Of a DNA stretch of 64,000 nt, positions 26,347 to 63,066 are shown piece after piece (within the stretch, counting starts at the first letter, position 1; the number at the start of each line of letters is the position of its first letter). Position numbers and translations under genes: made by a program. The notes beneath the pieces were generated by a model that saw only the letters and a list, made by a program, of their open reading frames with translations, was not told the DNA's origin and did no database searches. This DNA comes from Mytilus edulis (Eukaryota): the NCBI RefSeq assembly GCF_963676685.1, contig NC_092348.1, positions 65,596,001 to 65,660,000 of the forward strand, in the 5' to 3' direction.

Positions 26347-28914
26347 ATGTCACCATTCAGCTTTGCCACCGTCATCGTTGCCTTTGTAGTCAGTTCTTAT
26401 GGACACGATTGTACAAAATACAGCCTGACACCATCAGACCAGTCTCTTATTGACATGATGAAGCATTACTTGCATACCTCACGAAAAGCGGAGTGTCCTG
26501 TAACACCTTCACAACTAAGTAAGTCTTTCAGCATTTAATTTGCCTTTGTGATTGTTCAATTTGATGCATCAGTAGTTAACTAAATAAATGTTTAAATCTG
26601 GTAAATTTGTTTCAAAAAGATACAAATCAAAATAACAAACAAACAAAGAGTCACAAAAATACCGAACTCAAATCCAAATTCTAAATCGATCAGTCCAAAC
26701 AAATTGACAAAATACATACCAGAGGAACAGATCGCAAAAACAATATATTATTAAATATTCTTTCTGATGACACTGCTGTGTACATGTGTGATTATAGTGA
26801 TTATATGATGAATTCTGCTTTCTTTAAATTTCTAGAAATATTTATTGGAAACACTTTTTAGCTATGAAAATTAGTATTTAAGTGATCATATCCACACTAA
26901 AAGGTTCTTTACAAATGGTGTTTGAATTAAATCATAATTCGCCGTTTCAGAATCTAATGCATTCTGGGTAATATTTCAAAAAGTACACCAAAACGTCGTG
27001 ATTGGTTAAAAAGGTCCAAAAACAATTGAAATTCAACCAATGACGTAACTTTATTTTCATTTTAGTACGAACAATGAGTTTATCTATAGTCCTTTAGATT
27101 CTGAAACGACCATTGTAAAAGATAGCCAAAGACACCAAAAGTTATGTTATGGATACGGACTAATCTTTTCCTGGAATTCATCTTCATTACGGTTTTTACT
27201 GTAAATTTACTATTTGCTGTGTCTATTTAAGATATTGGTGTGACTTATGTCAGATGGGGAAAGAAAACTTGTCCAAAAAATTCGGAAATTGTGTATACAG
27301 GAATGGTTTTTCACTATCTTCATTTGAACTAAATCAGAAAATGGTAAGTTCCTATAGATGGATGAGAGCGCCAAACATAAAAAGGCACTTTTACTTGCTA
27401 ACAATTTTTTTTTATAAATATGTTATGAATATATAATGCCATATGCACATTTAATATTTGTTAAATTTGTTAAAAATCATTGTTATGTTGTATCTTATTT
27501 TGTTGCATTTGAACTAAATCAGAAAATGGTAAGTTCCTATAGATGGATGAGAGCGCCAAACATAAAAAGACACTTTCACTTGCTAACTATTTTTTTTTAT
27601 AAATATGTTATGAATATATAACGCCATATGTACATTTAATATTTGTTAAATATCATTGTTATGTTGTATCTTATTTTGTTGCATTGAAAATTACAACAAA
27701 TGTCATAAACATAAATAATCTTTTTATCCTAGAATAGGCCTGGGGTTAAAGTCATAAAACTTTGCTCAGTCCTAGGAGCACAAAAATCGAGCTCGAAACA
27801 TGAAATTAAGCATTTTGATTGGTTGATTTTGGAGTATGAGTACAAAAAACTAACTCGAAAGTTTATGACTTCAAGGCCAGGTACTCGTTGAAAATAGTAT
27901 TTTTTTGTAGATTCAAAGGAAATTGAGGATATGACATTACTAGGGTCATGATAAGGTTGAAGTTATCGTAACGGATGCTTAAACATAACACGTTTGCTAA
28001 TGCTTGAGTAAAAATCTACAACATATATTCAAAGACGAACTTGCTGTCTCAACCACTGGTAATTTAATTCCTAAAATTAGTTTGTGATATCTTTTTCATC
28101 GTTGCATACAAATAAATAATATGAATAATAACGTTTTTATTAAGATAATTACCCTTAAAATTATTCAGGCCAGGCTGGTGGTAACTTTTACACTAACAAA
28201 GGAGGAGGTTCAAACTACCTCTGTTTACCGAGTGATCCTGAAAATGGTAAAGCATACTCCTATGGTAATGATGGATTATATGGTGCCGAGTATGAGATAC
28301 ATGCCGACACTAAACCATCAGGTTTACCTGCTAGTTTGGCCGAAAAAGAGGTCCCGTGTGCTGTATGCAGGCGGAATGGAAGAGTTTCTGTTTTAATGAT
28401 ACCAGGTAATTTCATTTTAGATATTTGCTTGTACTGTTATGTGAAAAGTTTAATAAATATGCTTTAAAATAGTTGGTCTAATATAAACCTACATTGTCAC
28501 ATCATATTGTTGATTGTAAGGTTTAATATGAAATAATCTTAAATCCAACTGCTTTAAATTATGCTTTATTCTTTATTATTGCAATCATTATTTCAAAGTA
28601 TAAAGTATAAATTAAATATGTTCTAATATAGAAATTGCATATTTTAAATCTATTTTTTTTAAATTTCTAATTTAGGAAGGAAGTCCTGTTACAAAGGATG
28701 GCAATCCGAGTACAGTGGTTTTTTGATGAGTGAACACAAAACTCACAACAATAAAGACTTTATCTGTATGGACGGAGACGCAAAACCACTAGACAATCGA
28801 GCATCCAGTGAAAATGGTGCTTTGGTTTATCCCATCAGAGCGAAATGTGGTAGTCTGAGATGTCCCCCATACAAAGATGATACTGAAGTGCTTTGTACCG
28901 TTTGTACAAAATAA
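26347..28914 (+). CDS. Secreted short-chain collagen C4 (NC1-like) domain protein lacking a collagen region, copy A, about 238 aa; exon 3 donor non-canonical
   Basis: Exons: 26347-26518 (signal peptide MSPFSFATVIVAFVVSSYG + HDC..ECP); 27232-27300 (YVRWGKKTCP..VYT); 28169-28405 (GQAGG..GGGSNYLCLP..YGAEYE..VPCAVC..VLMIP); 28676-28914 (SCYKGWQSEYSGFLMSE..FICMD..NGALVY..CGSLRCPPY..CTVCTK). All introns are phase 1. The donor at 27301 reads GA where copy B has GT. Confidence 0.85.
27322..27685. repeat. Tandem duplication of about 186 bp in the intron after exon 3 of copy A
   Basis: TTTGAACTAAATCAGAAAATGGTAAGTTCC.. at about 27323 and 27508. Confidence 0.9.
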
Positions 28915-29469
28915 AAATAAAATATAACGTTCAATATTTTTTTAACTTATTTCCTATGTAAAAGTTTATTTTACAGGGTAGTATACTGTACCTCAATTTA
29001 AAGTCAAACGTGAATAACTGGTTTCTTTATCATATGATATAAGTTTGTGTATGCTGGTTTGTTGATATTGAGGATAACAGGGTGTGCTGTTATTCTAGGT
29101 TTTTATGAGAGACAGGTTATAAATCAAGTTGTTTATTATTGTTTAGATTTTTCACTTGGGTTAGTTATGATGTAAAAATCTAGCGCCATTTTACAATAAT
29201 AGATTCAATATCTAATGTTTGTTATGTTTTAAGGGGTATCTGGGGTGATCGATTGGTCTTAAAAGTTTAATCACAAAAATACTGAACTCCGAGGAAAACT
29301 CAAAAAGGACAGACCCTAATCAAATGGCAAAATCAAAAGCATAAATAAAAAAAAACATCAATCGAATGGACAACAACTGTCATATTCCTGACTTGGTACA
29401 GGCATTTTCTTAAGTCGAAAATGGTGGATTGAACCTGGTGTTATAGCAATAAACCCAATGATACTTCAG

Positions 29470-29670
29470 TATCACTAGCCTTTCAACACTGAGGATGTAA
29501 GTTAAAATCCGGGAAATGTCAGATATGTTCAAATTTAATCTTTGTAAACTAGTATTGTCAGTTTTCTTATTGAGAATTGGTGGTTTTCTCCGGGCACTCC
29601 AGCTTCCTCCGCCAATAAAACTCAATGCCACCCACGACGAAATACAATAGTGCTAAAAATAGAGGTAAAT
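29470..29670 (+). mobile_element. Degenerate tRNA-derived SINE with a V-type core (relatives at about 22270-22420 and 53055-53310)
   Basis: GGTTTTCTCCGGGCACTCCAGCTTCCTCC core after a B-box-like segment. Confidence 0.55.
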
Positions 29671-31024
29671 ATCTATCAATTTACCAATCGCTATGTTTTA
29701 CGTTGTCTCTTCATCAGAATTCTTACTAATGACTTCAGCATGAAAATGAAACTTTACATATTATGTGAGTCCGAAGCACTTACGGGATTTACTTTCATTA
29801 GGAACACTCAAACGCAGGCTTTTGAAAGTGAAGAATCGGTCAGAAAAGGAATAGCCTAATTCAAAATTAGCAAGAAAGAGTTAAATTTCTGTATCTATAA
29901 ATTGAGAATTGAAGACGAAAAAACATGTTATAACATATAAAAACATGTTTCATTTTTTAAAATAAATAAGGCCGTTAGTTTTCTAGTTTAAATTGTTTTA
30001 CATTGTCATTTCGAGATATGTGGTATGGTCTTTGCTCATTGTTGAAGGCCGTACGGTGACCTATAGTTGTTAATTTCTGTGTCATTATGGACTCTTGTGT
30101 AGAGTTGTCTCATTGGCAATCATACCACATCTTCTTTTTTATATAAATCCTGTCAGTACTGAAGAACATACTACTGAGCTGATGGGTTATTAATTAAGGA
30201 ACTTGCATTCAACCAGACGTGGTATCGACCAAACACTAGTAATTGATGAACAAGATCACAATTGTTATATCTTAACGGGAAACAAATAAATGGTGTTCTG
30301 CTTTGTTTGCAATCTTCCTAGAAAATCTAGAAGTTATCATGATTCCCTTTTAAAATAGCACACGATAAGCACTCTGTCGTCCTTTGTCATTAAGTCCAAG
30401 TGTTCGAAACAACGGGTTTGATAACTAAAAGTATCTCTTGCTTGATATCAATAAAATAATTTACTTTAAAATAAAACCCCAGAAAAAACAAGACTATTGC
30501 CATTCAGGGCCATAGGTCAAGGTTTTTTGAAATATTTTGATTCGACAAACTGTTTCCTGATGGAAACTTGAATTTTCCCTTAATTGATTGGATTGGATAA
30601 TAACGGCGGAATATACAGGACGTGAAAGGAATCCTATTGATTTTGAAAGTCAAGAGGTCAAAGTTTAAGGTCCTTGTTACGTAATATAAAAATAATTGAA
30701 ATACCAACCGGGGAAAGAAAGAAGCATATTGGTTATGGGATCAACAAATGCAAAGGGTCAGGGTCACTGTAGCTTGAAATAAAACAAAAGTTGATTTTGG
30801 TGCTGTATCAAACTATTAGTTGTATCAATATATATAATCATTATGATGAAAAAAAGCAACAATAGTACACGGTCCCTTAAAGCATATACATGTATTTGAA
30901 ACCTTGAAATACAATTGTTTCACTGAATTTAAACCATTGCGGTGCCTATTCATTAACTGTAGATTTTTTTTTAGAATCAACGCTCCCTAATTAGTTATCA
31001 AAGGTACCAAGTTTATATTTTAGT

Positions 31025-31068
31025 ACGCCAGACGCGCATTTCGTCTCCACAAGACTCATCAATGACGC
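31025..31068 (-). ncRNA. Degenerate hammerhead ribozyme copy
   Basis: GCGTCA-TTGATGA-GTCTTGTGGAGAC-GAAA-TGCGCG-TC-TGGCGT; carries a C3U change in the core. Confidence 0.6.
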
Positions 31069-33503: not shown

Positions 33504-33563
33504 TAAACAGACAAATAAAATTCCAATTTAGTGACAACAATGTTAGTTTAGAATGATGACCAT

Positions 33564-34303
33564 ACCAATACTAATGCATATCAACACAAATAAATGCAGA
33601 CCAATACTAATGCATATCATCACAAATAAATGCAGATCAATACTAATGCATATCATCACAAATAAATGCAGATCAATACTAATGCATATCATCACAAATA
33701 AATGTAGATCAATACTAATGCATATCATCACAAATAAATGCAGACCAATAATAATGCATATCATCACATATAAATGCAGATCAATACTAATGCATATCAT
33801 CACAAATAAATGCAGATCAATACTAATGCATATCATCACAAATAAATGCAGATCAATGATAATGCATATCATCACAAATAAATGCAGATCAATACTAATG
33901 CATATCATCACATATAAATGCAGATCAATACTAATGCATATCATCACATATAAATGCAGACCAATACTAATGCATATCATCACATATAAATGCAGATCAA
34001 TACTAATGCATATCATCACAAATAAATGCAGATCAATACTAATGCATATCATCACAAATAAATGCAGACCAATACTAATGCATATCATCACAAATAAATG
34101 CAGATCAATACTAATGCATATCATCACATATAAATGCAGATCAATACTAATGCATATCATCACAAATAAATGCAGATCAATACTAATGCATATCATCACA
34201 AATAAATGCAGACCAATACTAATGCATATCATCACAAATAAATGCAGACCAATACTAATGCATATCATCACAAATAGATGCAGACCAATACTAATGCATA
34301 TCA
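33564..34303. repeat. 36-bp minisatellite, about 20.5 copies
   Basis: Unit CAATACTAATGCATATCATCACAAATAAATGCAGAT with few variants. It explains the 253- and 306-aa ORFs. Confidence 0.98.
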
Positions 34304-35540: not shown

Positions 35541-38500
35541 TAGTCCGGCGGCTACAAGCATATTACAGACGAATTGTTCACATCCTGCTACAAGCATGAA
35601 ATTTGGCATTCCTGAATTATTGCTCTTTTATTTCAGAAAGGGAGGCATTTGAAAAAAATTACTCACTTCCGGTAAAATCCAAAATAACTTAAATCAGCCC
35701 AATGTCAAAGGCTAGTTTTTGAAAATGTGTTATTATCATGCTTCTATCATAATATTTGGTACAAATCTTTGTTATGTACTACTTTTGAATATATTATATA
35801 GATTAGGAGTCTTCAAAAACCCTACTTCCGGTAAAATCTAACATTGTACTAAAATAAGCTTATTTTTAGGGAGGTTAATTAAAATGTGTTTAGACGTATT
35901 GCTACTATCATTACATTGTGCAGGAACCTTTCGTTGGTGCTTCTAATGGATACAATGTAAAATAAATATGTCTTAAAAACCCCTACTGCCGGTAATATCC
36001 AAAATTGCGGACATAGAAATATCAATTTATTATTTAGATATTCAACTTTTTTTCAAAATGTAAAAACAATGTGTTTTTTTTTTGTGCTGGTCATTAAACT
36101 TTTGGCTTTAAGTTATCCTCAAAACCCCTAATTCTATTCTGTTGTAAATGTTTAAATACAAAGTTGACACTTCCGGTAAAAAATATGGCGTAAATTTCAA
36201 AGATGAGTCATCGATCCATTTCTTCGATGTAGAATTTTGTATAGATTGATTAAAACAAAATAAAATCAGTATAATACTAAAACAATTTTAAAAGTACTAC
36301 TATTTGGCCAAAATTACATGTTTATTCAAAGTCACCACAACATGCACATAAAGCAGTGCACTGGAAACCCAATTTTCCACATTAACAACGACCGCGACAT
36401 CCTTTCTTACATACACAATGTACAAGCTTCTGTTGAGAAAATAACCTCAATTAGCCTTCCCTTTTTTGCAAATAGTTATTTTCTTGCTTCGTTAACCATG
36501 TTAGCCACATCTGATAAGTTTGTGCGATCTTACAGTAAAACCCCGGTGTTTAGGTTGATCAAACATCATTCTTTATGTTAAAGTCACATCTTCAAATGCA
36601 ATCAATGTCTCCCACGCAGTCTTTTTTTCTTTTCAAGGAAAGAGAGAACCGTATCACTACCGGTAAAGGCATTGATCACAATTAGTGTGCGAAACAGTAA
36701 TGACAGCATCATCAGTAACGACTGTTCGAATCATGACTCGTTTAAGTTCGTGATTCACTTCATCTGACACATGCACCATGATTCTAGTGTCAGCCTCTTA
36801 ATGTGAACATAGTGCTAAACTTAAAATACATCACGTGGTGGATAACACTGAACATCTTGAGCATTTGTTTCTACAACTACCATACTCATCAAAGATTTCA
36901 TCCTCTCGGGTTACAGTTTCAAGGTATTTTATTAAGGTAAGGACATACTACCCAATTAGCATACTCGTTAGACCACAAATACATCTTTATTCACAATCGG
37001 AGAGCTGATTTTCCACATTTACAAAGATTGGTTTTGTTTCTTACATCCATAATGTACAAACTCCTGATAAGATGAAGAGGCCTCACTAAGAGTTGTCCAA
37101 AAGGTTTCATTGATCATAGTTTTTCCTTCGCCATTTATAAGCGTCTGGACTAGTTAGCATAGGAACCAATTCCAAGCTTGTTACTCATTCGTACCCGCTA
37201 TGGTATATTGCACTCTTTACATGCTGAAAAAGACTAGACCGAGTCGTGGGAATAGTCTCAATAAGTCTTTCCTCTTTCAAAAACGCTGTTTTCTTGCTTT
37301 GTACTCATTCTAAATGCTTAAGTCACATCTTCAAACGCCATCCATGTCACCAACGCAACTCCTTTTGTAGCAAAAGTGTAATCTCTCAAAGCCTAGTGCA
37401 TTTGAAAGGTCATGTATAGATATATATCTAAGGTTTTTCCCACTTCCAAATGCAAACCAAAGTTCGTCTCCCCCTAGGTTACAGAATAGCGAAACAGCAA
37501 TGACATCAGTATCGACTGTTCGAGTCATGACTCAGTTAAGTCTGTGTTTCACTGCACCAGACACATTCATCTTGATTCAAGTGTAAGTCTCTTCATGTAA
37601 ACATGGTGCTAAACTTGAAACATCATCAAGTGGTGGATAGCACTGAACATCCTGCGCATTTGTTGCTACAACTACCTTTTCCTCGACATTTTATTGAACA
37701 AGCTGCTGTGAATGAAACTATAAAGTTCTTTTTTATTGTCGTCATCTCTCAAAAAAACTTTGCCTATTTTAAGGAATTTGTTTTGACCCTGGATTCGTCT
37801 GTGTATTCCCTTTCCCCAAAATGTAGCTCTTGCTTTTTGTAGCAGCCTTCAAACTACCAGTATTGTCTGTGTACGCATCCGAGACTACATCCACTATTGT
37901 TATAGTTTCAAGGTGTGTCCTAACGAGTATGCTGATTGGGTATTATGTCGTTACCTTAATAAAATACCTTGAAACTGTAACCCGAGAGGATGAAATCTTT
38001 GATGAGTATATCTATTTGTAGGGGTAGACGAAATGTTGATTGTGTTTGGGAGGGCAAAAATCTTTGAATTAATATCTATCGATGATCTTTCAAATGCAAT
38101 AGGCAATGAGTGATCACACATACGTATTGTGATCCATGCCTTTACCGGTTGTGATACAGTTCTCTTTTTGCTTGAAAAGAAAAAAGACTGCTTGTGACAC
38201 ATTGATGGTATTTGAAGATGTGACTTTAACATAAAGAAGGATGATAATCAACCTAAATCACCGGGGTTTTACTGTAAGATCGCACATAGTTAACAGATTG
38301 GGTTAAGATGGTTAACGAAGTAAGAAAACAACTATTTGCGCAAAAAGGAAGGTTAATTGAGGCTATTCCCTCAACTTGGTCTAGTCTTTTCCAGCATGTA
38401 AAACGTGCAATATACTAAGGCAGGTGCCTAGGAGTACGAACTTGGAATTGGTTCTTATGCTACCCAGTCCAGGCGCTAATGGATGTCGAAGGGACAAAGA

Positions 38501-39323
38501 GGATCTCTTTTTAAAAACTCTTTCCGATGCCTCATCATTTAGTCAGAAGCTTGTACATGTGGATGTAAGAAAGGATGATGCGATCGTTGTTAATGTGGAT
38601 TTCCCGTAGACTGCCTAATGTACATGAGGTGGTGATCGTGAAAAAAACATGAAGTTTTGGCCGAATAGTAGTTTTAAAAATGTTTTAGTACTTTAGTGAT
38701 TTTATTTTGTTTTCATCGATCTATTCAAAACTCTACATCAAAAATTTAATGACCAGCACAAAAAACAACATTTTCTTTACATTTGAAAAAAAGTTGAATA
38801 TATAAATAAGAAATAGATACTTCTATGTCCGACGTTTTGGATATTACCGGAAGTAAGGGTTTCAAAGAAAGATGTCTTATACATTGTATCCATGAGAAGC
38901 ATCAAAGAAAAGTTCCTGCACAATGTAATGATAGTAGCAATACGCATTTCAAACATATTTCAATTACCCTCCCTAAAAAAAATAAACTAATTTTAGTACA
39001 ATGTTCGCCATATTAGATTTTACCGGAAGTAGGGTTTTTTAAAAAGACATCTAACCTATATTATATATTCAAAAGTAGTGACAAAACAAAGGTTTGTACC
39101 AAATGTTATGATAGTATCATGATTATAACACCTTTTCAAATACTAGCCTACGATATTGGGCTGATTTAAGTATGAAGTCCACCCTTTTGGATTTTACCGG
39201 AAGTGCGACATTTTTTCAAATGCCTCCCTATCTGAAATAATAGAGTAATAGTTAAGGAAGGTCTATGCCAAATTTCATGCTTGTTGCAGGATATGCACAG
39301 TTTTTCACAAAGCCGCTGTACTA
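35541..39323. mobile_element. Degenerate Academ-like DNA transposon with about 1.4-kb inverted arms
   Basis: TAGT..ACTA termini and a 3-bp TSD TTC (35538-35540 and 39324-39326). Arms 35541-~36975 and ~37915-39323 are reverse complements. Disrupted XPG-like motifs (H*EADTR, RTVDTDV..LWFAFGSGKNLRYISIH, IHAFTGCDTV at 38132) and a Cys-rich tail (CGCKKG*CDRC*C, about 38555), as in Academ proteins. Confidence 0.85.
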
Positions 39324-43974: not shown

Positions 43975-44120
43975 TTCATTTAAAATGTCAAAATATAGTG
44001 TTAGGCTATGGAATGTATTCGACACGCTATTTCAAAATTAAAAATATTGATCAATCCATGATATAAAATATAAAGAAGATACTGCATAAACGCTAACACA
44101 AATTCCTTGAAGTCAGTAAG
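43975..44120 (+). promoter_or_regulatory. Core promoter (TATAAA 44069-44074) and non-coding exon 1 of copy B
   Basis: Paralogous to 26100-26246; donor AAG|GTAAAA at 44121. Confidence 0.65.
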
Positions 44121-44221
44121 GTAAAAAGTAAAATGTTTTTATGTTCTTTTGTGCATAGTCATGTTATTTTGATCTGTTATATTTTGAACTATTATATGAT
44201 TACTTGTACTCTATTTTCAGA

Positions 44222-46893
44222 ATGTCCACATACAGCTTTGCCACCGTTATTGTTGTCTTGGTAGTCAGTACTTATGGACATGATTGCACAAAATACAGCC
44301 TGACGCCATCAGACCAGTCTCTTATTGATATGATGAAGCATTACTTGCATACATCACGGAAGGCGGACTGTCCAGTAACACATACACAACAAGGTAAGTC
44401 TTTGTAGTCTGTGTTTACGGACATGATTGTACAAAATACAGCCTTACACCATCAGACCAGTCTATTATTGATATGATGAAGCATTACTTGCATACATCAC
44501 GGAAGGCGGACTGTCCTGTAACACCTTCAAAACAGGGTAAGTCTTTGTAGTCAGTACTTATGGCCATAATTGTACAAAATACAGCCTTACACCATCAGAC
44601 CAGTCTATTATTGATATGATGAAGCATTACTTGCATACATCACGGAAGGCGGACTGTCCTGTAACACCTTCAAAACAGGGCAAGTCTTTGTAGTCAGTAC
44701 TTATGGCCATAATTGTACAAAATACAGCCTTACACTATCAGACCAGTCTATTATTGATATAATGAAGCATTACTTGCATACATCACGGAAGGCGGACTGT
44801 CCTGTAACACCTTCAAAACAGGGTAAGTCTTTGTAGTCAGTACTTATGGCCATAATTGTACAAAATACAGCCTTACACCATCAGACCAGTCTATTATTGA
44901 TATGATGAAGCATTACTTGCATACATCACGGAAGGCGAACTGTCCTGTAACACCTTCAAAACAGGGTAAGTCTTTGTAGTCAGTACTTATGGCCATAATT
45001 GTACAAAATACAGCCTTACACCATCAGACCAGTCTATTATTGATATGATGAAGCATTACTTGCATACATCACGGAAGGCGGACTGTCCTGTAACACCTTC
45101 ACAACAAGGTAAGAAAAAAAAGTAGAAAAATATACAAATCAAGGTAACAAGAAAAAAAATCGAACTCGGAGTCCAATCAAAATCAAATTACGGAACGATT
45201 GAAAAACAACTGCTATATCGAATAAACAGAGATTCAGAGATAAATGATGTGTCGACAAGATAAGACTTTCCTGTTATGCATGTATCACCCACAGTACAAA
45301 TTCATACTCAGTCAAACTCTCATCATTAGAAATTTAAAAGAGACACAACTGATAAAGTTACAGATCAGACGAATAGATCGCAGAAAAATAAAATATTCTT
45401 TCTAATCAAACTATTGGGTGTGATTATATAAATTAGTTTGCTTTTGTTGAATTTATATATAAATGTTTAAAGAAAAGAAACTTGTAATTTATTTATGAAA
45501 ATGAGTATTCAAGTGATTATATCCTCACCAAAATGTTTTTACCAATTGAACTTGCATTAAATCATAAATATAAACGGGTGCCAAAGGCAAAAACGTTAAA
45601 GGACCAAGCTTCTCCAGTAATTCATATTCAATACAGTTTCGTACTGTAAGTAAATGTTTTGCTTTGTATATTTGAGATATTGGTGTGACATATGTCAGAT
45701 GGGGAAAGAAAACTTGTCCTGAAAATTCGGAAATTGTGTATACAGGTATGTTGTTTTCATTATTATCATCATTTACGTAAATCAGAGAATTACTACACAT
45801 TGAATGAAGCGCTAGACTGTAAAGGACAGTTTTTCTTGCTTACTACAGTTTTCTTTTCTTTTCTTTTCATAAACATATAGTTCTGTACTTTTGAAGTAAT
45901 TTTTTTACCAGTAATGTACACTCATATATATTTTAGGTATATTAAAAGAGAAGTTTTTAAAAAGAACAAGAATAGCTAATGCTTGTGAAACAATCTGAAA
46001 CACAGTTTTAAAGTCGAACTTAAAATACTCTACTTCTTGCATGTTAATAAATTAAACAATTTAAACACTGGTTTGTGATATCTTTGTCATTGTAACGTAC
46101 AGACAAGTAATTTGAATAATGAAATTTGATATTTTAAATAAGATAATCATCTTAAACTTCTTCAGGGCAGGCTGGAGGTAACTATTATAAGAACAAAGGG
46201 GGTGGTTCCAACTATCTCTGTTTACCCAGAGATCCTGAAAATGGAAAAGCATACTCCTATGGAAATAATGTACTATATGGTGCCGAGTATGAGATACATT
46301 CAAGGTCGTCTAAACCATCCGGTTTGTCTGCCAGTTTGGGCGAAAAAGAGGTTCCATGTGCAGTATGCAGGAGGAATGGGAAAGTTTCTGTTTTAATGAT
46401 ACCAGGTAGTTTCATTATTAATATTTGTTTACACCATTATTTGGAAAAGAATAATAAATATTTTATAAAATAATGGGTACATTATTTAGTTACATTGTCA
46501 CATAATATTGTTGATTATAAGGTTCAACATGAAATAATCTTGAATGCTACGGCTTAACATAATGTTCTGTATAATCACAATCATTATTTCCAATTATAAA
46601 GTAATAACTCGTTTTAATATAGAAACTGCATATTTTTACATTTGTTTTATTTAGGAAAAAAGTCCTGTTACAAAGGATGGCAATCCGAGTACAATGGCTT
46701 CTTGATGAGTGAAAATATAGGACATAACATTAAAGAATATATCTGTATGGACGGAGAGGCGGAACCATTGGACAATCGATCCTCCAACGAGGATGGTGCT
46801 TTGTTTTATCCTGTCAGAGCAAAATGTGGAAGTCTGAGATGTCCCCCATACAAAGATAATACTGAAGTGCATTGTACAGTTTGTACAAAATAA
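44222..46893 (+). CDS. Secreted short-chain collagen C4 (NC1-like) domain protein, copy B, about 239 aa, intact
   Basis: Exons 44222-44393, 45677-45745, 46166-46405 and 46655-46893, with GT-AG phase-1 introns and an open frame throughout. Same motifs as copy A. Confidence 0.9.
44261..45113 (+). repeat. Six tandem 143-bp copies of the 3' part of the first coding exon plus splice donor of copy B
   Basis: Units start at 44261, 44404, 44547, 44690, 44833 and 44976. Each encodes (V)STYGH[DN]CTKYSLTPSDQS..KADCPVTPSKQ or a close variant and ends in G|GTAAG (one unit G|GCAAG). Confidence 0.97.
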
Positions 46894-48836: not shown

Positions 48837-49894
48837 GAAGTCAAAACATTTGAAAATCTGAATCTAAATACAAACATTGAATAGCCGATCTACCAAAATG
48901 GTCTAAAGGAGTACGGGCTATAATGACATAAAATGGCTCTAGATTTACAAAATCATAAAAATTCAAAAAGAGCTAATTTTTCTCAAAAAAATATTAGAAT
49001 ATGAGACAATGATTATAACTAAATGTTTTTATCTATAAAAAAAAAAGTGTTATGACGTCACAATGGTAGATGCAAAAGAAGTCATAATCAGAAATATAAG
49101 CAAAAATATAGAATTTGGAAAGGTTATGCTACATTTTGACCACCGCACCATCCTTGCACCAATTAGAAATTTTAAGATAAAAAAATGTTTTGGGTGCAAG
49201 GTTGAAGCGAAAGTTTATTTTAAATTTTTCAGTGTCAGGGAAGCAATAAAAAGCTGAAATTTGCCGTCAACATTAGACGTATTCCTTTGGCAAAGTTTAA
49301 TTTATACGTTCTTATGATTCCAGATCCATGTATTTAGTTTTGATATTATATTTGTTATTCTCGTGGGACTTTGTCTGCTGCTTGGTCCGTTTCTGTGTGT
49401 GTTACATTGTAGTGTTGTTTCGTTGTTCTCTTATATTTAATGCGTTTCCCTAAGTTTTAGTTTGTTACTCCGATTTTGTTTTTTGTCCATGGATTTATGA
49501 GTTTGAACAGCGGTATACTACTGTTGCCTTTATTTATGCTTATACGAATTTTACCTTTTTGCCTATGAATCAGTAACATGAATTTCTTATTTTATTTTTG
49601 TAAGCATACCTAGTTTTACTTTAAAAAAAAACCAACCGAAAGCAATGAACTACATATTGTCAGGGAGTAAACAAAAACTTTGAGGATCATTTTCATTTAA
49701 TATGAAATTTTAATAGACATGCAAAATATCAAGTTCTGTACATTCTAATATTTCTGCTAATTTCAATTCAAAAATCTTGTGTTTGAATGAGGCAATCTTC
49801 TGGTATAAGAGTCGGTTCCATGATTTGTGTAAGAAAAAAAGAGGGGGATGGAAGTAATTCCAGAAAACAAAGTATACCGAATTTAAGAGATTCA

Positions 49895-51450
49895 TTTTTA
49901 GCTCACCTTTCCAAAAGGAAATGTGAGCTTTTGCCATCACTTGGCGTCCGTCGTCGTCCGTCCGTCGTCGTCGTCCGTCCGTCGTCGTCGTCCGTCCGTC
50001 GTAAACTATTTCAAAGATCTTCTCCTCTAAAACTACTAAACCAATTCAAACCAAACTTCATCTGATTGATTCCTAGGGTATCTAGAATAAAGTTTGTGTT
50101 TTAATTTCCATTTCATCAAAACACATGGCCGCCATGGCTAAAAATAGAACATAGGGGTAAAATAAAGTTTTTAGCTTATAACTCAAAAACCAAAGCATTT
50201 AGAGCAATCTGACACGAGGTAAAATTGTTTATCAGGTCAAGATCTATCTGCCCTGAAATTTTCAGAAGAATCGGACAACCCGTTGTAAGGTTGCTGCCCC
50301 AGAATTGGTAATTTTAAGGAAATTTTGCTGTTTTTGGTTATTATCATGAATATTATTATAGATAGAGGTAAACTGTAAACAGCAAAAATGTTCAGCAAAG
50401 TAAGATTTACAAATAAGTCAACATGATCGAAATCGTCAGTTGATCCCTTTAGGAGTTATGGACCTTTATAGTTATTTTTTAACCATTTTCCGTAAATCTT
50501 AGTTATCTGTTACAAAAATCTTCTCCTCTGAAACTACTTGGCCAAATTGAACCAAACTTGGCAACAATCATCATTGGGGTAACTATTTTAAAATTGTGTC
50601 CGGTGACCCGGCCAACCAACCAAGATGGCCACCATGGCTAAAAATAGAACATAGGGGTAAAATCATTTTTTGGCTTATAACTCAAAAACCAAAGCATTTA
50701 GTGCAAATCTGACATGAGGTTAAATAGTTTATCAGGTCAAGATCTATCTGCCCTGAACTTTTCAGATGAATCAGACAACCGATTGTTAGGTTGCTGCCTC
50801 TGAATTGGTTATTTTAAGAAAATTTTGCTGTTTTTGGTTATTATCATGAATATTATTATAGATAGAGATAAACTGTAAACAGCAAAAATGTTCAGCAAAG
50901 TAAGATTTACAAATAAGTCAACATAATCGAAATGGTCAGTTGACCCCTTTAGGAGTTATGGCCCTTTATAGTCAATTTTTAACCATTTTCCGTTAATCTT
51001 AGTTATCTTTTACAAAAATCTTCTCCTCTGAAACTACTTGGCCAAATTTAACCAAACATGGCCAAAATCATTATTAGGGTATTTAGTTTGAAAATTGTGT
51101 CTGTTGACCCGGCTAACCAACAAAGATGGCCGCCATGGCTAAAAATAGAACATAGGGGTAAAACGCAGTTTTTAGCTTATAACTCAAAAACCAAAGCATT
51201 TAGAGCAAATCTGAAATGGGGTAATGCTTGGGGTATACAATGTTTTTTTTTATACTTTCATCATAAATTATATTATGAACACGAGACAAACGAGACATTT
51301 CAGTGTGTCCACTCTTGTTTTTGCTTTTGAAGAAGATATGACAGAATCGAAGAACCATTTATATCAATTGAAAACCCAAAATAATCATTGATGGAAGATT
51401 TAAGCAAGAAATTTAATGTGAGCGATTCAGGCTCTTGAGAGCCTCTTGTT
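49895..51450 (+). mobile_element. Non-autonomous Helentron-type element (HINE) with internal repeats of about 500 bp
   Basis: TTTTTAGCTCACC..GTGAGC inverted end, a (GTC/GTCC)n microsatellite, about 2.3 internal repeats (50134, 50634, 51135), and a terminal GAGCG..AGGCTCTTGAGAGCCT hairpin followed by CTTGTT. Confidence 0.85.
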
Positions 51451-51506
51451 CTTAAATGTACATGATTTGTGAAAAACATGAGATATATTTTGAAATGATA
51501 CCACCC

Positions 51507-52280
51507 ATTTTAGCTCATTAGGCCCAAAAGGCCAAGTGAGCTTTTCTCATCACTTGGCGTCCTTCCTCGTCCGTTGTCCGTCGTCTGTTGTCCGTCCTCC
51601 GGTAACTTTTACAAAAATCTTCTCCTCTGAAACTACTTGGCCAAATTTAACCAAACTTGGTTGCAGTCATCACTAAGGTGTCTTGTTAAAATATGTGTCC
51701 GATGGCCCCGCCTGCCAACCAAGATGGCCGACATGTCAAAAAAATAAAAATAGGGGTAAAATGTAGTTTTTGGCTGATATCTCTGAAACCAAATTCTTAA
51801 GAGAAAATCCGAAAGGATTAAAAATGTTCATTACGTTAAGATCTATCAGCTCTAAAATTTTCAGATGAATCAGACAACCCGTTGTTGGGTTGCTGCCCCT
51901 TAATTGGTAATTTTAAGAACATTTTGCAATTTTCGGTTATTATCTTGAATATTATTATATAGAGATAAACTGTAAACAGCAATAATGTCCAGCAAAGTTA
52001 GATCTACATGACCAAAATTGTCAGTTGACCCCTTAAAGAATTATTGCCCTTTATAGTAAATTTTAAAAATCAAATTACAAAAATGTTTATTGTTGAAATT
52101 GATGGGCCAAGTTATTTTAGATAGAGATAAATGTAAGCAGAAAGAATGTTCAGTAAAGTTAGATTTACACAAACTCATCACCATCACTAAAACACAATAT
52201 TGTCATGAATTCATGTGTGGCCTTTGTTTATTATGCACATAGACCAAGTGGGCGACACATGTGCTTTAGAGCCTCTAGTT
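51507..52280 (+). mobile_element. Second HINE of a related subfamily
   Basis: Same architecture with one internal repeat; ends GAGCCTCTAGTT. Confidence 0.8.
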
Positions 52281-52680: not shown

Positions 52681-52748
52681 TCTATCCATTAAAAGGTCGA
52701 CTATCCATATATATATATATATGGATAGTCGACCTTCCCATGGATAGA
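52681..52748. repeat. Palindrome centred on (TA)n
   Basis: AAGGTCGACTATCCA(TA)nTGGATAGTCGACCTT with an outer TCTATCCAT/ATGGATAGA pair. Confidence 0.9.
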
Positions 52749-55700
52749 AACAAGTGTCTGTAGTCTGTTAGCGTCCTACATATGTTTGTTAGTGTAACCT
52801 TTTAAAAGGTTTTGTTTTGAATAAATCTTGAATCATGTATTAGTAAGTGTTTATTCCTAAAAAATAAAGATAAGTGTTTTTATTTAAAAAAAAAATAAAG
52901 TGACATTTTAAAAATGTAAACACATTTTGTTTTTTGAACTATTTTTACATAGTGCATAATGAATACTGTCGTGATGAAATTTCAGAGATATCTATGTATA
53001 TGTTTTGGATATATGATAATATATTAATCATTCATTTTACAACCAATTTTGGGGGGAACCGCGTTGACCGAGTGGTCTAAGTAGAAACTACAATGTAGTG
53101 TACCATTAGCCTGTTAACACTGGGGTTGTGAGTTCAAATCTTGCACATAGCAGGTATGCGCGGCTCAAATATCAATTGATAGGATTGATCGTTTTACTTT
53201 CGAAAATCGTTGGTTCTCTTTGGCTTCGACTGCTAATAAAACTTGACGTCATACAATTTGCACAATATGGTTGAAGGTGGTGTTAAACATCAATCAATAA
53301 ATCAATTAATCATGCATTTTAATTATTCAAATATTATTCTCAATCAATATTTTTTTTCAAGAAAATAAAAGAAGTCATTGCATACTTGTTTCGATTTTCA
53401 CTAAGTTTAATGTACTAAACTAAGTTTTGATTACAACTCCTTTAAAAAATATTTCAAATCCCTTATATGTACTATAACTTGACCGCAGAATAAAACACTG
53501 AAATCAAACTGCCAATTTGAAGAGCAAAAATCAAAACTGAAAATTTCCGCTTAAATCAATAAATTGCAAAAGACCACCTGCGGACCCTTCAGCATCGGAT
53601 TTAACTTCCTTATTTTTATTCGTCATGGTTGAGAACTAAATATATTCCAGACAGCCAAGCGGACTCCTGACTTTAGCGAGGGTTTTGATGCCTGTGAAAA
53701 GATGACAAAGTTAATAATATGTCTATTCCTAAGTCACAGTAAAAGGAAAGTACACCAGACACACTTTTTGTTTACAAAAGTAATGTTTTCTTTGGGTAGA
53801 CAATCCTTTGCACACCAAATTATTCAAAGTTTGGTCATTTCGAAAGAGAAATAAAAAAAACATCCAAAACAAATTCAGATATGACAGTCCCTTATCAAAT
53901 GGCAAATCAAAAACCTCATCACAAACGGCAAACGAAAGAAAAACATCTATAATTTTCCGGCTACATACATTTCCTTATGTAGAATATGATGGAGTAAATC
54001 TTGATTCATATGTTAATTTTTCACATCAATTTCAATTTTACTGACATCAATATTAATTTAGAATGATGGCCATACCAATAATAATTCATATCAACAGAAA
54101 TGCAGACTACTGGTCTGGTAATAACCCCAGGGTGATAAACCTCCACCAACAATGGCATCGTCCAATAGGTTGTACACTCATTCATAATAAATACCAGACT
54201 TTAAACGTTGCACGTCAGCCAAGCGTTCCGTCTTCAAAAGACTAACCAGTGACGTTCGAAAAAAAAACCCGTTTGTCACATTGAGAGAAGAGAATTCCAA
54301 AAAGTTTTGCCTAATACAGATAAGGTTACCTTTTTTTTTTTTTTTAGAAAACTCTATTAAAGTATTTCTAAGAATTAGTTTTTTGCAAACAATGCTTGTG
54401 ACTATATTTATCATTATTCATGTCAAAACAAATGCTGGTTTCTGGGTTATTACCTTATCTGTTATATAGAAGGGTACCTCAGTGATAGATTACTTTTAAA
54501 AAAGTAGAATTATTTGTTCTCCTGATGATTTTTCTTAACATTATAAATGGATCTTTAAATCTTACTGTCTGTTGTCTGGTGTTAATTGTAAACTTTAAAA
54601 ATTAAGTTTAGAGACAGAAGATAGGCAATACGATATGTAATATTTTGCACACATTGTTTAACAACATCTTTTTATTTAATTGAAGAAACACATTGAATGA
54701 AAATTCTATAAATAGTGCACATTTAAGTTCAAAGAATAATAAGAAAGTGAAAAAGTATTTCAATACTATCCTTCAATTTTTTTCATTCAGAACCAGTCAG
54801 AAGATTATTCTTGCAAATTAAGATGTTGTTAATTGTTCAAGTTGATTAAAATAATATATATAGCGTCATACACGTCATTGTTGTTGCATACATTATTCAA
54901 AGAATAGACGAGGTCTTGGTAAAAAATATGTTTAATACAAAAAGAAAAAAAAAAAAAACTAAATGAGCTTGACTTTGTAGGGCTGTAAGCGTAAACCCTA
55001 TGATTATTCAATTTTGAAACTACGAACTTAAGTAAGGTAAAAGTTAAATCCAAATAACACTGAACTCTGAGGCTACTTTAAAACGGAAAGTCCCCAACCT
55101 AAATGGCAAAATTGTAAATGCATCAAAAACTAGTTTGAAGCAATGTGATTATTTGATCAAATTAACCAAATAAACTCATCATAGATATTATCCCTTATAT
55201 GAAGTTTTTAGAAAATAATCTATGAATCGATTTTGGATATATGTTTCCTGATTATTTTTTTTAAAGTAACTCAATCACAACATTTTTGTGGATTTCAAAA
55301 GCCTCCAAGCTAGATAAATAACTTATACTGTAGATCAAACTTTCGCCTTAAATGACATGACAGCACTTCGTTATTCCCTTTAGACTGCATTATAATTTCT
55401 GATATGTCATTGCGAAATTATAGAACTGTATTCTATAAATTAAAAAAACCATAAGGCGTACCAATGCGTTTATGGCGCTGCCGCAGCTCTTTATTATTAA
55501 CAAGTGTTGTACTTTTACAGGATCCCATGAAAAATAGATAGACACGCTTTGATATGCCATCCTTAGAAAATTAAGTTTATAAACATTTAAAAGGCTTGTT
55601 TTTAGCTAAACAAAACATATGTATCTCATATTTTAAACCACACAGCGGAACAGGCAGGCATGACTATTATTAAATGGTAATATGCACGTAAGAATTTCTA

Positions 55701-56934
55701 ATCCACATACCCAATCCCAACCTTCTTTTCCCGTTTGCGTATGCATCAATATATCAGGGATAAGTGAAGAATCACTTTTACGTTTTTATGAGACAAAATG
55801 TTATCTCTATTTGAAAATACTTTTTAAAATTAACAGATCAGGATAGTCACCCGATGTTCAAAAATAACGGCATTGTTGTTCATGTAAGTTCAAATAATAA
55901 TTATCAGGGGTTTAAATGTTGAAAGAAAATGAAGATAACAATTGTGTGATTTCCAATGAGACAAATATCCACCATAAGAAAGGACGAGAATATAAGCAGA
56001 TGTAGGGCACGATACGATATTCAACAAAGGGCAACATCTAAGCTGCATATAAAGGGCCTGGAATATGATACAAGCCAGAAGACACTGCAATTTACCGATA
56101 ATTGAAGTAAAAATTTACACCATATGCATGCATAGATGGTCGAAACAGTTTGTCTGGTCAGAGCAGTGATAGATAATTAAAAGACCAATGAGACCAATAA
56201 TATATGGTAATAGAAGACTGGGTTGTAGTTCAAGTCCATATATAAAAATGGCTCGTTTTGTCGGACTACAAAGGAAATAACTCTCTGACACCGTCTCGAT
56301 ATAATCAATCTCATATTTGTGAAAACCTGTATTAATTTGAGTATATAACGAATGTTTTTCTTTTGATTTAAAACTCCATGAAGTTGCCAAACTATCTATG
56401 TAATAGATAAGAGTATATTTTTAATATTTATTTTAATTTTTAAATTGAACTGGATTTAAGGAGGTAGAGCGGATTGTTGAATTCAGAGGAACTGTTTTAA
56501 TTTGCCAATTTTTACAATGAGGAGTTGTTGTATGATAATCAACGAGACGACTATCAATCAGAGACCAAACAACAGGGAAGCATATAAGTTACCGTACATG
56601 CCTCACCAATTACCAATACATTGTATAATTACAATGTATATGTTTCGGACCATAGGAGTATTTGGATCATATGAGTATGGTCATGACCATATGGGTATAC
56701 ACACTGTATATTCATAGGATCTGGGTATTTAATAATTTGATATCAGTTACCTTTACAATTGATTGCACTCTTCAATGTGTCATAAATTAATAAGTTTGAA
56801 AAGTGAAATCTGAATAATCAATTAAAAAAAAACGATTATCATTGTTACATGATTTATAGAATAAATCAAATATTTTATTAAGGTGTAAACATTATAATAA
56901 ATGATTGATGTTTCCTCACAAAACACAATATATC

Positions 56935-57094
56935 CATAGGCGGATCCAGGGGGCCCTGGGGGCCCGCCCCCCCCCCCCCTTTCGTGGGAAAAATTTGGTT
57001 GATTATATAGGGAATCATTGAAGCATGACTGTAGCGGGCCCCCCTTAGGTTAGTCAGCGGGCCCCCCTTAGGAAAAGTTCTGGATCCGCCACTG
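56935..57094. mobile_element. 160-bp MITE with a 5-bp TSD (hAT5-like)
   Basis: TIRs CATAGGCGGATCCAG / CTGGATCCGCCACTG and TSD ATATC. The empty site is visible in the paralogue at about 41512. Confidence 0.9.
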
Positions 57095-58561
57095 ATATCG
57101 ACACCGCCTATAACTCAAAAAAATATCTAAATGAACCGTCTAACAAGAAATCAACTGTTACTAATCTTAACTCAAATAAAACCCCACATACACCAAACGA
57201 CAGGATGAATTTGTCGACAGCGTAAAGTAGCTTCAAATTGACTATAGCTAAAGAAAGGCATCAGTTATACTTAAATTCAGACAATAGATCAAATATATAG
57301 GGATTTATATAAAAAAAAAGTAAAATCACAAAACATCGAACTTCGTTGAAAATTTCAACGGAAAGTCCGTAATCAAATGGCAAAATCAACAAACCTTCAA
57401 CACATTAATGGGCAACAGCTGTCATATTCCTGACTTGGCACAGGCATTGTCTCGTGTAGAAAAAAATATAATAAGCCGTTTTCCTTAGAAGAAGTTAGAA
57501 AAATATCAATATGTTCTAAATACTGCTTTATAAAAAAAAACCCATAGAATATATATTTATTAAGATATAATAAACTAAGATACATACCACATGATATACA
57601 TACAATACAATAAACATCATTTGGCGTTTAGCAGTCTCGGTTGCTGTCACAGTGATTGATTAATTCCCAAGCTTGAGAATCATAGCAATCAGAAGATCTG
57701 AGTTTATGCTTGAACTTCTGAATAACGATAAGGCACTAACTTTAAGTTCATGCTTGAACTTACTGCTGGACCTATTCTTGTTTATGACTACAAGCATGTA
57801 GATCAAAAACGTCAGTGATAGAAGTCCATGCACTGACGTCAGGACTGACTTAGAAACTTCTAGCATGTGTCTGGTCTATTTAAAATTTAAAATTTAACCA
57901 AATTACTGCTATAAGTCCCATTAACTATGACATTAACTATGACAAGCAACTTATACATCAATAACTCTGCATCAAATTTGGGGAAATTGAGTAAATAATA
58001 ACGAAAATATGCCAAATACAGTTGATGACCGGTATTAAAAGGAGACAACTGAACCCCAAATGAAGATGTTTACTGTAAATTCAAAATCTACTGAGTGCGT
58101 ATGGCAATGATAAATTTCGCATTTAATAGATGATACTATATCTTTCTACAGATTTTCTGAAATCGCAATGATATATGCACGCATCAAATTCTGAATTTAC
58201 AGTATATTTTGAACAAAGATTTGTAACATTATTAATATATCTCAATATGTAAATTGATATACAAATGAACTTTATATCAGATGCGAATAGATAAATAGCA
58301 ATTAAAACGTCAATTACTTATCGTTTATCAGTATGTAATTCCGGCGTGCTGGAAAACACTGTAAAATTTTAGTGATAAGCACAATTGTTCTGATTAACTA
58401 GCAGGCATTGCCAAGTACAATAATATGAAGATGCTACGATAAAATGAAAAAAATACAGTTCCCAAAGCAAAAACATTCACTACAATACTGTTGTTTAATA
58501 TCTAAAAAATTGATAATAAACGATGGTTTCTTTAAATGCCATTAAAAATAATAAGATTTAA

Positions 58562-58708
58562 TTTCATTTAAAATGTCAAAATATATTGTTAGGCTATCGA
58601 ATGTATTCGACACGCTATTACAAAATTAAAAATATTGATCAATCCATGATATAAAATATAAAGAAGATACTGCATAAACGCTAAGACGAATTCCTAGAAG
58701 TCTGTAAG
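58562..58708 (+). promoter_or_regulatory. Core promoter (TATAAA 58657-58662) and non-coding exon 1 of pseudogene copy C
   Basis: Paralogous to the A and B promoters; donor AAG|GTACAC at 58709. Confidence 0.55.
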
Positions 58709-58810
58709 GTACACAATTAATTTGCTTTTATGTTCTTTTGTTCAAATTGTTGTTATATTGATTTGTTATATTTTATTCTATTGTATGAATACTACTACTC
58801 TATTTTCAGA

Positions 58811-60059
58811 ATGTTTCCATTCAGCTGTGCCATTGTTGCCTTGGTAGCCACTACATAGGGACATGATTGTACAAAATACAGCCTGACACCATCAGACCAG
58901 TCTATTATTGATATGATGAAGCATTATTTGCATACTTCACGGAAAGCAGATTGTCCTGTAACAACTTCACATCAGGGTAAGAAAAAAGTAGAAAAATATA
59001 CAAATCAAGGTAACCAAAAAAAAAAAAAAAAAAAAAAATGGAACTCGGAGTCCAATCAAACTCAAATTACGGAACGATTGAAAAACAACTGCTATATCGA
59101 ATAAACAGAGATTCAGAGATAAATGATGTGTCGACAAGATAAGACTTTTCCGTTATGCATGTATCACCCACAGTACAAATTCATACTCAGTCAAACTCTC
59201 ATCATTAGAAAAGAGACACAACTGATAAAGTTACAGATCAGACGAATAGATCGCAGAAAAATAAAATATTCTTTCTAATCAAACTACTGGGTGTGATTAT
59301 ATAAATAAGTTTGCTTTTGTTGAATTTTTATAAATGTTTAAAGAAAAGAAACTTGGAAATTATTTAGGAAAATGAGTATTCAGGTGATTATATCCTCACC
59401 AAAATGTTCTTTACCAATTGAACTTGTATTAAATCATAAATATAAACTGGAGCCAGAGGCAAAACGTTAAAAGTAATGGATTAGATAAGATGGACTAAGC
59501 TTCTCTAGTTATTCATATTCAATACGCAGTATGCAGGAGGAATGGGAAAGTTTCTGTGTTAATGATACCAGGTAGTTTCATTATTAATATTTGTTTACAC
59601 CATTAGTTAGAAAAGAATAATAAATATGTTATAAAATAGTTGGTACATTAATATCCTATATCGTCACATAATATTGTTAATTATAAGGTTCAACATAAAT
59701 GATCTTGAATGGTACGGCTTAACATAATGTTCTGTATAATCAAAATCATTATTTCCAATTATAAAGTAATAACTCGTTTTAATATAGAAACTGCATATTT
59801 TTACATTTTTTTATTTAGGAAAAAAGTCCTGTTACAAAGGATGGCAATTCGAGTACAATGGCTTCTTGATGAGTGAACATATATAGGACATAACATTAAA
59901 GAATATATATGTATGGACGGAGAGGCGGAACCATTGGACAATCGGTCTTCGAACGAAGAAGGTGCTTTGTTTTATCCTGTCAGAGCGAAATGTGGTAGTC
60001 TGAGATGTCCTCCATACAAAGATAACACTGAAGTGCTTTGTACAGTTTGTACAAAATAA
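58811..60059 (+). pseudogene. Pseudogene copy C of the secreted C4-like domain protein
   Basis: TAG at 58856-58858 in the signal peptide. The junction at about 59525 lacks 725 bp relative to copy B (45635-46359: all of exon 3 and most of exon 4). A 2-nt insertion near 59880 frameshifts the last exon. Confidence 0.92.
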
Positions 60060-63000: not shown

Positions 63001-63066
63001 TGTAAGAAAAAAAGAGGGGAATGGAAGTAATTCCAGAAAACAAAGTATACCGAATTTAAGAGATTC

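What the first reader, a model, noticed from the sequence alone, without database searches (positions are those of the whole stretch)
26347..60059. Birth-and-death cluster of secreted, collagen-free C4/NC1-like proteins with an unrecognised N-terminal module
Seen: three tandem paralogues in three states (odd splice site, intact, dead). Established: the YVRWG..C/GGGSNYLCLP/VPCAVC/CGSLxCPPY domain is the C-terminal domain of sponge short-chain collagen C4-like proteins. Here no Gly-X-Y region exists; it is replaced by a module of about 38 aa, C-x27-C (HDCTKYSL..MMKHYLH..CP), that I do not recognise. A/B differences cluster in loops (FYTN/YYKN, HADTK/HSRSSK, EHKTHNNKDF/ENIGHNIKEY). Inference: a fast-evolving recognition (immune or lectin-like) or matrix (shell, byssus) family in which a helical disulfide module substitutes for collagen as the oligomeriser.
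Basis: partly seen in the sequence, partly recalled or inferred. Interest (0 to 1): 0.7.

Follow-up and report, generated by a model that had tools for sequence, protein, structure and literature searches.

The report
Mussel collagen-free NC1 trimer gene cluster
Three neighbouring mussel genes (one readable, one likely broken, one dead) from a large gene family encode predicted secreted proteins with a collagen-IV-like head and, instead of collagen, a short and unusually constant predicted helix that likely helps bundle three chains; the family is known by name, but this helix and the proteins' job are not described in the papers searched.

Summary
Confirmed: three tandem paralogues (A, B, C) of a Mytilus 'short-chain collagen C4-like' family. 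They belong to a 9-gene cluster; the head exon has 150+ matches genome-wide. The head folds like collagen IV NC1 (Foldseek E 2e-6) and is predicted to trimerise (0.93 vs control 0.02). Losing collagen is ordinary here: only 22 of 96 single-domain relatives have Gly-X-Y. The 38-residue module matches no family; all 74 species-named carriers are Mytilus. It is a short helix that joins the trimer interface and is the most constrained part (dN/dS 0.02-0.06). It is not a fixed disulfide loop: first Cys 48/48, second 36/48. The named loops are variable (dN/dS about 0.5), but site tests find no positive selection. A has a GA donor and is probably a null allele; C is dead. The extra copies could splice in frame, but they drift almost neutrally, so they are probably intronic relics. 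Function untested; a surface-binding role, probably at the gill, is slightly favoured over matrix. The scan noted this family earlier in another cluster of this genome. Moderate-low interest.

The parts
26347..26518 (+). Gene A coding exon (exon 2): signal peptide (residues 1-19, by inspection) plus N-terminal module HDC...CP
27232..27300 (+). Gene A exon 3 (start of NC1 head, GVTYVRWG); followed by a non-canonical GA donor at 27301-27302
   Evidence: the public model of this gene starts only in exon 4 (P0058)
28169..28405 (+). Gene A exon 4 (GGGSNYLCLP ... VPCAVC)
28676..28914 (+). Gene A exon 5 (CGSLRCPPY ... CTK stop)
44040..44120 (+). Gene B non-coding exon 1 (5' end approximate); its splice to exon 2 is seen in a contig
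   Evidence: joint 44118-44219 GT..AG in X1; homologous exon before all 9 cluster genes
44222..44393 (+). Gene B exon 2: signal peptide plus module, first copy; donor AG|GTAAGT at 44394
44394..45108 (+). Five extra 143-bp copies of the module exon. Each is a 14-nt GT..AG (one GC..AG) spacer plus a 129-nt phase 1-1 unit; likely non-coding relics inside intron 2
   Evidence: similar arrays in paralogues G (8 copies) and F (2 copies) outside the window
45677..45745 (+). Gene B exon 3
   Evidence: spliced contig X3 record 8 with 0 differences
46166..46405 (+). Gene B exon 4
46655..46893 (+). Gene B exon 5
58811..58976 (+). Gene C exon 2 (pseudogene): TAG at codon 16 in the signal peptide; module still open
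59518..59573 (+). Gene C: deletion junction (exon 3 and most of exon 4 lost) and remnant of exon 4
59820..60059 (+). Gene C exon 5 with a frameshift near 59883

Best explanation
These are three copies in a tandem cluster of a mussel gene family whose proteins have a signal-peptide-like start, a short near-invariant predicted helix and a head predicted to fold like collagen IV NC1; they are predicted to form three-chain units that likely act as multivalent surface-binding proteins, probably on the gill. Shown: exon structure, copy number, damage to A and C, spliced transcripts of the family, strong constraint on the helix, relaxed constraint on three head loops. Predicted: NC1-like fold; homotrimer held mostly by head-to-head contacts, with the helix (L34, I35, M38, L42) as a short three-helix stalk in the place taken by collagen or a long coiled coil in other members. 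Inferred: the invariant first cysteine (C22) links chains or trimers, as in collectins and ficolins (recalled analogy); the variable loops tune what the trimer binds; unequal crossover makes and breaks the genes, swaps their halves and produced the exon-2 arrays through a short microhomology between the signal-peptide codons and the start of intron 2. A is likely a null allele, B likely makes a normal protein from the first donor, C is dead.
For: Labels 'short-chain collagen C4-like' on 75-91% identical Mytilus proteins. Model of P0005 (91% identical to B): pLDDT 88; top Foldseek hits all collagen IV NC1, E 2.4e-6, probability 1.0; VIA-align Z 7.2, rmsd 4.0, 147 aligned. Trimer score 0.93, best of 3 controls 0.02; runs agree in at least 90% of contacts, partner pLDDT at least 85; the mark was reached by 21 of 30 solved pairs and 0 of 23 single chains in a microbial calibration, 7 of 16 in animals. 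Helix dN/dS 0.06 in 15 genes and 0.017 in the six C5 genes; head strands 0.13; named loops 0.47-0.65. First Cys 48 of 48. Spliced joints e1-e2, e2-e3, e3-e4 and e4-e5 in contigs of X1, and e2-e3, e3-e4, e4-e5 in X3. B and G share exons 2-3 at 94-97% but exons 4-5 at 79-85%, a mosaic. A transcript named Short-chain collagen C4 is among the top 25 gill-specific transcripts of M. galloprovincialis (1,235-fold), beside C1qDC, apextrin-like and fibrinogen-related transcripts (PMC4581086 tables). 150 scored matches of the head exon on many chromosomes.
Against: No binding or tissue data for these genes; the gill transcript is named only by family and may be another subfamily. No significant positive selection: M1a vs M2a LRT 0; M8a vs M8 p=0.52 (6 genes) and 0.15 (15 genes). 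Loops at the predicted interface are no more variable than free loops (0.235 vs 0.264). The trimer pass may come from memory of solved collagen IV NC1 trimers; three copies was my choice and other numbers were not tried. Fold scores are moderate (TM about 0.38, Z 7.2, under the tool's caution line of 8). The public model of B uses the last array donor and lacks the signal peptide (P0269), so B may not be intact in practice. Papers on relatives mostly treat them as matrix or shell proteins (PMC12040131, PMC6626399 passages).
Confidence: 0.5

Rival explanations
1. Structural matrix protein: the trimers are minor building blocks or adaptors of gill, cuticle or adhesive matrix, assembling head-to-head like collagen IV NC1; copy number serves dosage, and loop variation is drift or chain selection.
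For: Fold is that of the collagen IV assembly domain. No positive selection. Several variable loops lie in the chain-chain interface. Relatives are up in the anemone adhesive disc (PMC6626399 passages), called shell-related in oyster (PMC12040131 passages) and mostly neuroglandular in Nematostella (PMC12549020 passage).
Against: No triple helix to build a network. Rapid gain and loss (4 of 9 damaged) and 150+ head matches are less usual for structural genes (general knowledge).
Confidence: 0.33
2. The exon-2 arrays of B and G are working cassette exons that add extra stalk modules by alternative splicing (adjacent copies exclude each other because only 14 nt separate them).
For: Each copy is 129 nt, phase 1-1, open in frame, with an AG before and GT (once GC) after. 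Arrays occur in three paralogues, and B and G units intermix in a tree, so the array predates their split.
Against: Codons private to the extra copies are 5 synonymous to 16 non-synonymous (ratio 0.77) against 21.5 to 10.5 (0.12) in six first exons, Fisher p=0.002 on crude, non-independent counts; counting all codons gives 14 to 20 (0.34, p=0.03). Changes include the invariant C22 to S and a frameshift in G copy 5. No copy-to-copy joint in 2 of 2 runs that gave reads. None of the 40 proteins shows tandem modules behind one signal peptide.
Confidence: 0.08
3. Gene A is functional through true GA-AG splicing of intron 3.
For: The rest of A is open, with all 10 head cysteines; the 'A' at 27302 was not contradicted by DNA contigs.
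Against: All other modelled paralogues have GT (14 of 14). The public model of this gene omits exons 2-3 (P0058). An automated model from another M. edulis assembly joins the orthologous exons (P0001, 95% identical over 163 aa), which suggests a normal donor there; its DNA was not seen. No e3-e4 joint among the 15 joints shown for A; 10 more were not shown.
Confidence: 0.12

Closest known systems
Spongin short-chain collagen (SSCC)-related proteins; database label 'short-chain collagen C4-like'
   Same: Same head domain: labels on close relatives, collagen IV NC1-like fold, ten head cysteines and no HSQ motif, which fits the 7+3 cysteines and missing HSQ described in PMC5395295 (passages).
   Different: No collagenous segment. 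The stalk is a 38-residue module with a short helix, found among named records only in Mytilus. Many other members also lack collagen and carry longer coiled coils, so the architecture class is common; this stalk is not.
Collagen IV NC1 domain (PDB 1m3d, 1li1)
   Same: Best structural match; predicted trimer through the heads.
   Different: 13-19% identity, about 180 vs 225 residues, no HSQ, no triple helix; hexamer formation not tested.
Bivalve stalk-plus-head secreted families (C1qDC, fibrinogen-related, collectin-like)
   Same: Signal peptide, N-terminal cysteine, helical stalk, globular trimeric head, tandem expansion with pseudogenes (recalled analogy; co-listed in gill in PMC4581086 tables).
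   Different: Different head fold; ligand unknown; no positive selection detected here.
ApeC-containing proteins (Pfam PF16977)
   Same: Secreted, cysteine-rich, gill-expressed invertebrate proteins; a weak Atlas feature score of 0.77, a lead only.
   Different: No Pfam hit for P0005 at E<=10, ten not eight cysteines, no DxED motif in 15 of 15 genes (features from PMC9585378 passages).

Membership tests
Spongin short-chain collagen (strict sense) | C-terminal NC1 domain homologous to collagen IV NC1 | tested here: met
   Foldseek E 2.4e-6, probability 1.0; VIA-align Z 7.2, rmsd 4.0, 147 aligned; model of the 91% identical P0005
Spongin short-chain collagen (strict sense) | Short Gly-X-Y collagenous domain before NC1 | tested here: not met
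   Longest Gly-X-Y run 2-3 triplets in 15 of 15 genes
Spongin short-chain collagen (strict sense) | HSQ motif absent from NC1 | tested here: met
   Absent in 15 of 15; feature from PMC5395295
Spongin short-chain collagen (strict sense) | Seven cysteines shared with collagen IV plus three spongin-specific ones | tested here: inconclusive
   Count of ten met in 15 of 15, all invariant or nearly so in 124 relatives; positions were not aligned to a named sponge sequence
SSCC-NC1 domain family (broad; 'short-chain collagen C4-like') | Significant sequence match of the head to labelled members and to collagen-bearing members | tested here: met
   Labelled members at E<1e-100; collagen-bearing P0121 (PF01391) at E 3e-42; 3764 representatives at E<=0.001
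Collagen IV | Long interrupted triple helix and HSQ-bearing NC1 | tested here: not met
ApeC-containing proteins | Pfam ApeC match, eight cysteines, DxED motifs | tested here: not met
Pattern-recognition lectin (functional class) | Binds microbial or glycan ligands | not testable with these tools
   needs binding assays
Pattern-recognition lectin (functional class) | Diversifying selection on binding loops | tested here: inconclusive
   Loops raised (dN/dS 0.47-0.65) but below 1; site tests not significant with 6 and 15 genes; low power and mosaic genes

The most novel reading that the evidence does not exclude
Mussels have turned the collagen IV NC1 fold into a combinatorial recognition system: about 30 paralogues share one near-invariant helical stalk, conserved even on its outward face (D36, H40, H43, R46). 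Any paralogue could then co-assemble with any other into mixed trimers whose variable clefts lie between chains, while the stalk surface docks a common partner or a metal bridge. This would be a recognition family not built on C1q, fibrinogen or C-type lectin heads.
Probability: 0.15. Interest if true: 0.7.

Novelty: new variant of a known kind. Interest (0 to 1): 0.35.

Why it matters
The head domain is very widespread in invertebrates (3764 clusters at 50% identity), yet it has no Pfam model, no solved close structure and, in the papers searched, no tested function. These small secreted 238-residue proteins are about the simplest version, so they are a practical way to ask what the domain does without collagen. 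The Mytilus stalk is a clean, strongly conserved motif worth a family model. The cluster also shows how such genes turn over: splice-site loss, deletions, half-gene swaps and exon arrays that mislead annotation. Without a function this remains a modest finding.

Tried and rejected
Module as a remnant of the longer stalk of the sister clade: profile-profile score 11.2, inside the range of 100 column shuffles (mean 9.4, maximum 15.6); not shown. Module searches: Pfam, 1 chance-level hit among 14 members; PDB sequences, best E 1.3; Atlas, no usable hit; Foldseek on a model of the module alone, no match at E<=10. A lone helix gives these searches little power. Module profile against the non-Mytilus relatives fetched: best domain E 1.1. 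PDB sequence search with the whole protein or a 124-sequence profile: nothing under E 0.47. ApeC lead from the Atlas rejected (see membership). Positive selection not found. Sequencing runs: no listed holder is on record as RNA; raw-read runs X21 and X24 laid 0 reads on gene B, so they are no test. Whether the GA donor or the arrays vary between animals could not be read from contigs; X15 may be the source sample and is not independent. Of 20 C7 stretches fetched, 9 gave a full reading frame; the other 11 were dropped because my stretch or parser missed an exon or boundary, and they are not counted as dead. Literature: 8 searches found no description of this stalk or a functional test of the family. 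The defining paper (PMID 16945979) is not held and is cited second-hand; it may already list collagen-free members. No supplements were read; expression tables there could bear on tissue and challenge response.
Full report
SETTING. The window is G000:C5:65596001-65660000 in a 1.37-Gb genome. Named Mytilus edulis proteins recorded on a contig of the same length are 100% identical to my models of the neighbouring genes H and I and to residues 81-238 of gene A, so this is a blue mussel.

OBSERVATION. Each gene has a non-coding exon 1, exon 2 (signal peptide plus module) and exons 3-5 (head), with phase-1 introns. A gives 238 aa only through a GA donor at 27301; read-through meets a stop 10 codons on. 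B gives 239 aa. C has a stop in the signal peptide, a deletion of about 720 bp and a frameshift. B and C are 96% identical over 4.5 kb on the 3' side but about 88% on the 5' side.

THE CLUSTER AND FAMILY. In 264 kb read around the window there are nine genes, A to I, over about 180 kb, plus an exon-5 relic. D has lost the 5' half of exon 2 and has a damaged exon 5; E has an exon-2 frameshift and no exon 5 was found; F, G, H and I are open. So 4 of 9 are damaged. The head exon has 150 scored matches of 214 candidates on many chromosomes. The module exon has 45 matches: 23 on C5 (nine genes with their arrays), 21 on C7 (17 at E<0.001) and one chance-level row, so about 30 loci. B and G share exons 2-3 at 94-97% but exons 4-5 at only 79-85%, a half-gene swap. 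An earlier unchecked note (e1-9508916) reports similar stalk/head mismatches in another cluster of this genome; it prompted the per-exon comparison, and I did not check its own cluster.

THE HEAD. Close relatives carry the label 'short-chain collagen C4-like'. There is no Pfam or PDB sequence match. An AlphaFold model of P0005 (91% identical to B; pLDDT 88) matches collagen IV NC1 first in both fold searches (E 2.4e-6, TM about 0.38; Z 7.2, rmsd 4.0, 147 aligned). All 15 modelled genes have ten head cysteines and no HSQ, as described for spongin NC1 (PMC5395295, passages). The domain has 3764 representatives at E<=0.001. From the best 150 I took the 98 newly listed proteins of at most 480 aa; 96 could be anchored. 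Of these 22 have Gly-X-Y runs, 35 a coiled-coil-like stalk by a crude heptad score, and 39 short or other N-termini, some of them fragments. Collagen-free members are therefore common.

THE MODULE. It matches no family or fold. A 14-sequence profile found 109 proteins among 1188 candidates: 74 carry a species name, all Mytilus; 35 are unnamed environmental records (the search is word-limited). It is one helix, residues 29-48. In 53 distinct cores, positions not fixed by my search pattern are almost constant: Q32 52, D36 52, H40 47, Y41 51, H43 48, T44 51, R46 51 of 53. With I35, M38 and L42 as core (contacts), D36, H40 and H43 would face outward (inference), so the surface is conserved too. 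The first cysteine is present in 48 of 48 full-length proteins, the second in 36 (the set was picked by a helix pattern that does not require either Cys). An obligatory C22-C50 loop is thus unlikely, and an inter-chain role for C22 is inferred. Homology to the longer stalk of the sister clade was not shown.

ASSEMBLY. Three copies of mature P0005 scored 0.93 against a best control of 0.02; runs agreed in at least 90% of contacts and partner pLDDT was at least 85. The mark was reached by 21 of 30 solved pairs and 0 of 23 single chains in a microbial, two-copy calibration, and by 7 of 16 in animals; the pass may come from memory of collagen IV trimers. Most contacts are head-to-head; the stalk adds residues 34, 35, 38 and 42. 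The module therefore looks like a short stalk beside a self-trimerising head, not the sole oligomeriser.

SELECTION. My own codon models on 6 C5 genes and on 15 genes (9 from C7, of 20 stretches fetched) gave dN/dS 0.25 and 0.20. M1a vs M2a LRT was 0 in both; M8a vs M8 p=0.52 and 0.15. The loops are really variable but not shown to be positively selected. Interface loops are no more variable than free ones (0.235 vs 0.264).

THE EXON ARRAY. B's exon 2 is followed by five 143-bp copies; G has eight copies in all, F two. The junction fuses the start of intron 2 to a look-alike stretch of the signal-peptide codons, which points to microhomology-driven duplication (inference). Each unit could splice as an in-frame 43-residue cassette, but private changes run 5 synonymous to 16 non-synonymous (first exons 21.5 to 10.5; p=0.002; all codons 14 to 20, p=0.03), including C22S and a frameshift. 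No copy-to-copy joint was seen in X1 or X3. If a later donor is used, read-through stops four residues after copy 1. The public model of B uses the last donor and loses the signal peptide (P0269); that of G takes its exon-2 end from dead gene C, 100 kb away (P0043). Both may be mapping artefacts among alleles.

EXPRESSION AND FUNCTION. Spliced contigs of the family occur in X1 and X3; one matches B's exons 3-4 with no differences but has a different exon-2 end. Tissue is not given. A transcript with the family name is gill-specific in M. galloprovincialis (PMC4581086, table passages); which subfamily is unknown. Other papers place relatives in adhesive or shell contexts (PMC6626399, PMC12040131, passages) or neuroglandular cells (PMC12549020, passage). 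PMC5867623, PMC9585378, PMC13093298, PMC6824150 and bioRxiv 2021.10.08.463732 were seen as passages only; PMID 16945979 was not held. Analogies to collectins, ficolins and C1qDC are recalled. I put surface binding at about 0.5 and matrix at about 0.33.

VERDICT. This is a new variant of a known kind: a Mytilus-type, strongly conserved helical stalk on the widespread spongin NC1 head, in a turnover-prone cluster. It is not a collagen. Interest 0.35.

Noticed in passing
window 7383-12689, - strand: Exons of an alpha carbonic anhydrase gene (Pfam PF00194, E 3e-11; further motifs at 11866, 11294 and 7383), the neighbour upstream of the cluster.
   Followed up: partly
window 33566-34303: 36-bp tandem repeat, 20.5 copies, 96% alike, open on both strands (308 and 257 aa); its Pfam hits look like repeat artefacts.
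   Followed up: partly
window 35572-39302: Nested inverted duplications, arms 75-95% complementary; probably decayed mobile elements.
   Followed up: no
window 27321-27685: 185-bp tandem duplication just after gene A's GA donor, holding two GTAAGT sites that lie beyond an in-frame stop.
   Followed up: partly
G000:C5:65654811 and 65755557 (genes C and G): Public model P0043 joins the exon-2 end of dead gene C to exons 3-5 of gene G, 100 kb away; M. galloprovincialis 'isoforms' P0282 and P0283 likewise put different front exons on one head. Mapping artefact or cross-gene splicing.
   Followed up: partly
G000:C5:65753747-65754925 (L040) and 65739966-65740280: Eight-copy exon-2 array in gene G with a two-to-three-unit higher-order pattern, and a two-copy array in gene F.
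   Followed up: yes
C7 loci L009-L012, L026, L028; proteins P0070-P0095: A sister clade of 280-290 aa with a different, longer helical stalk (C-x5-C ... MPL ... LKADLD) on the same head; the assignment of these loci to that clade was not checked.
   Followed up: partly
window 49710-52067 and 62883-64000: Repeated element with a CGT/CCGT microsatellite, duplicated together with genes B and C.
   Followed up: no
window 17998-18728: 46-bp tandem repeat, about 10 plus 2 copies.
   Followed up: no
P0001: An automated model from another M. edulis assembly fuses two cluster genes to carboxylesterase domains, which suggests esterase genes near the cluster in that haplotype.
   Followed up: no
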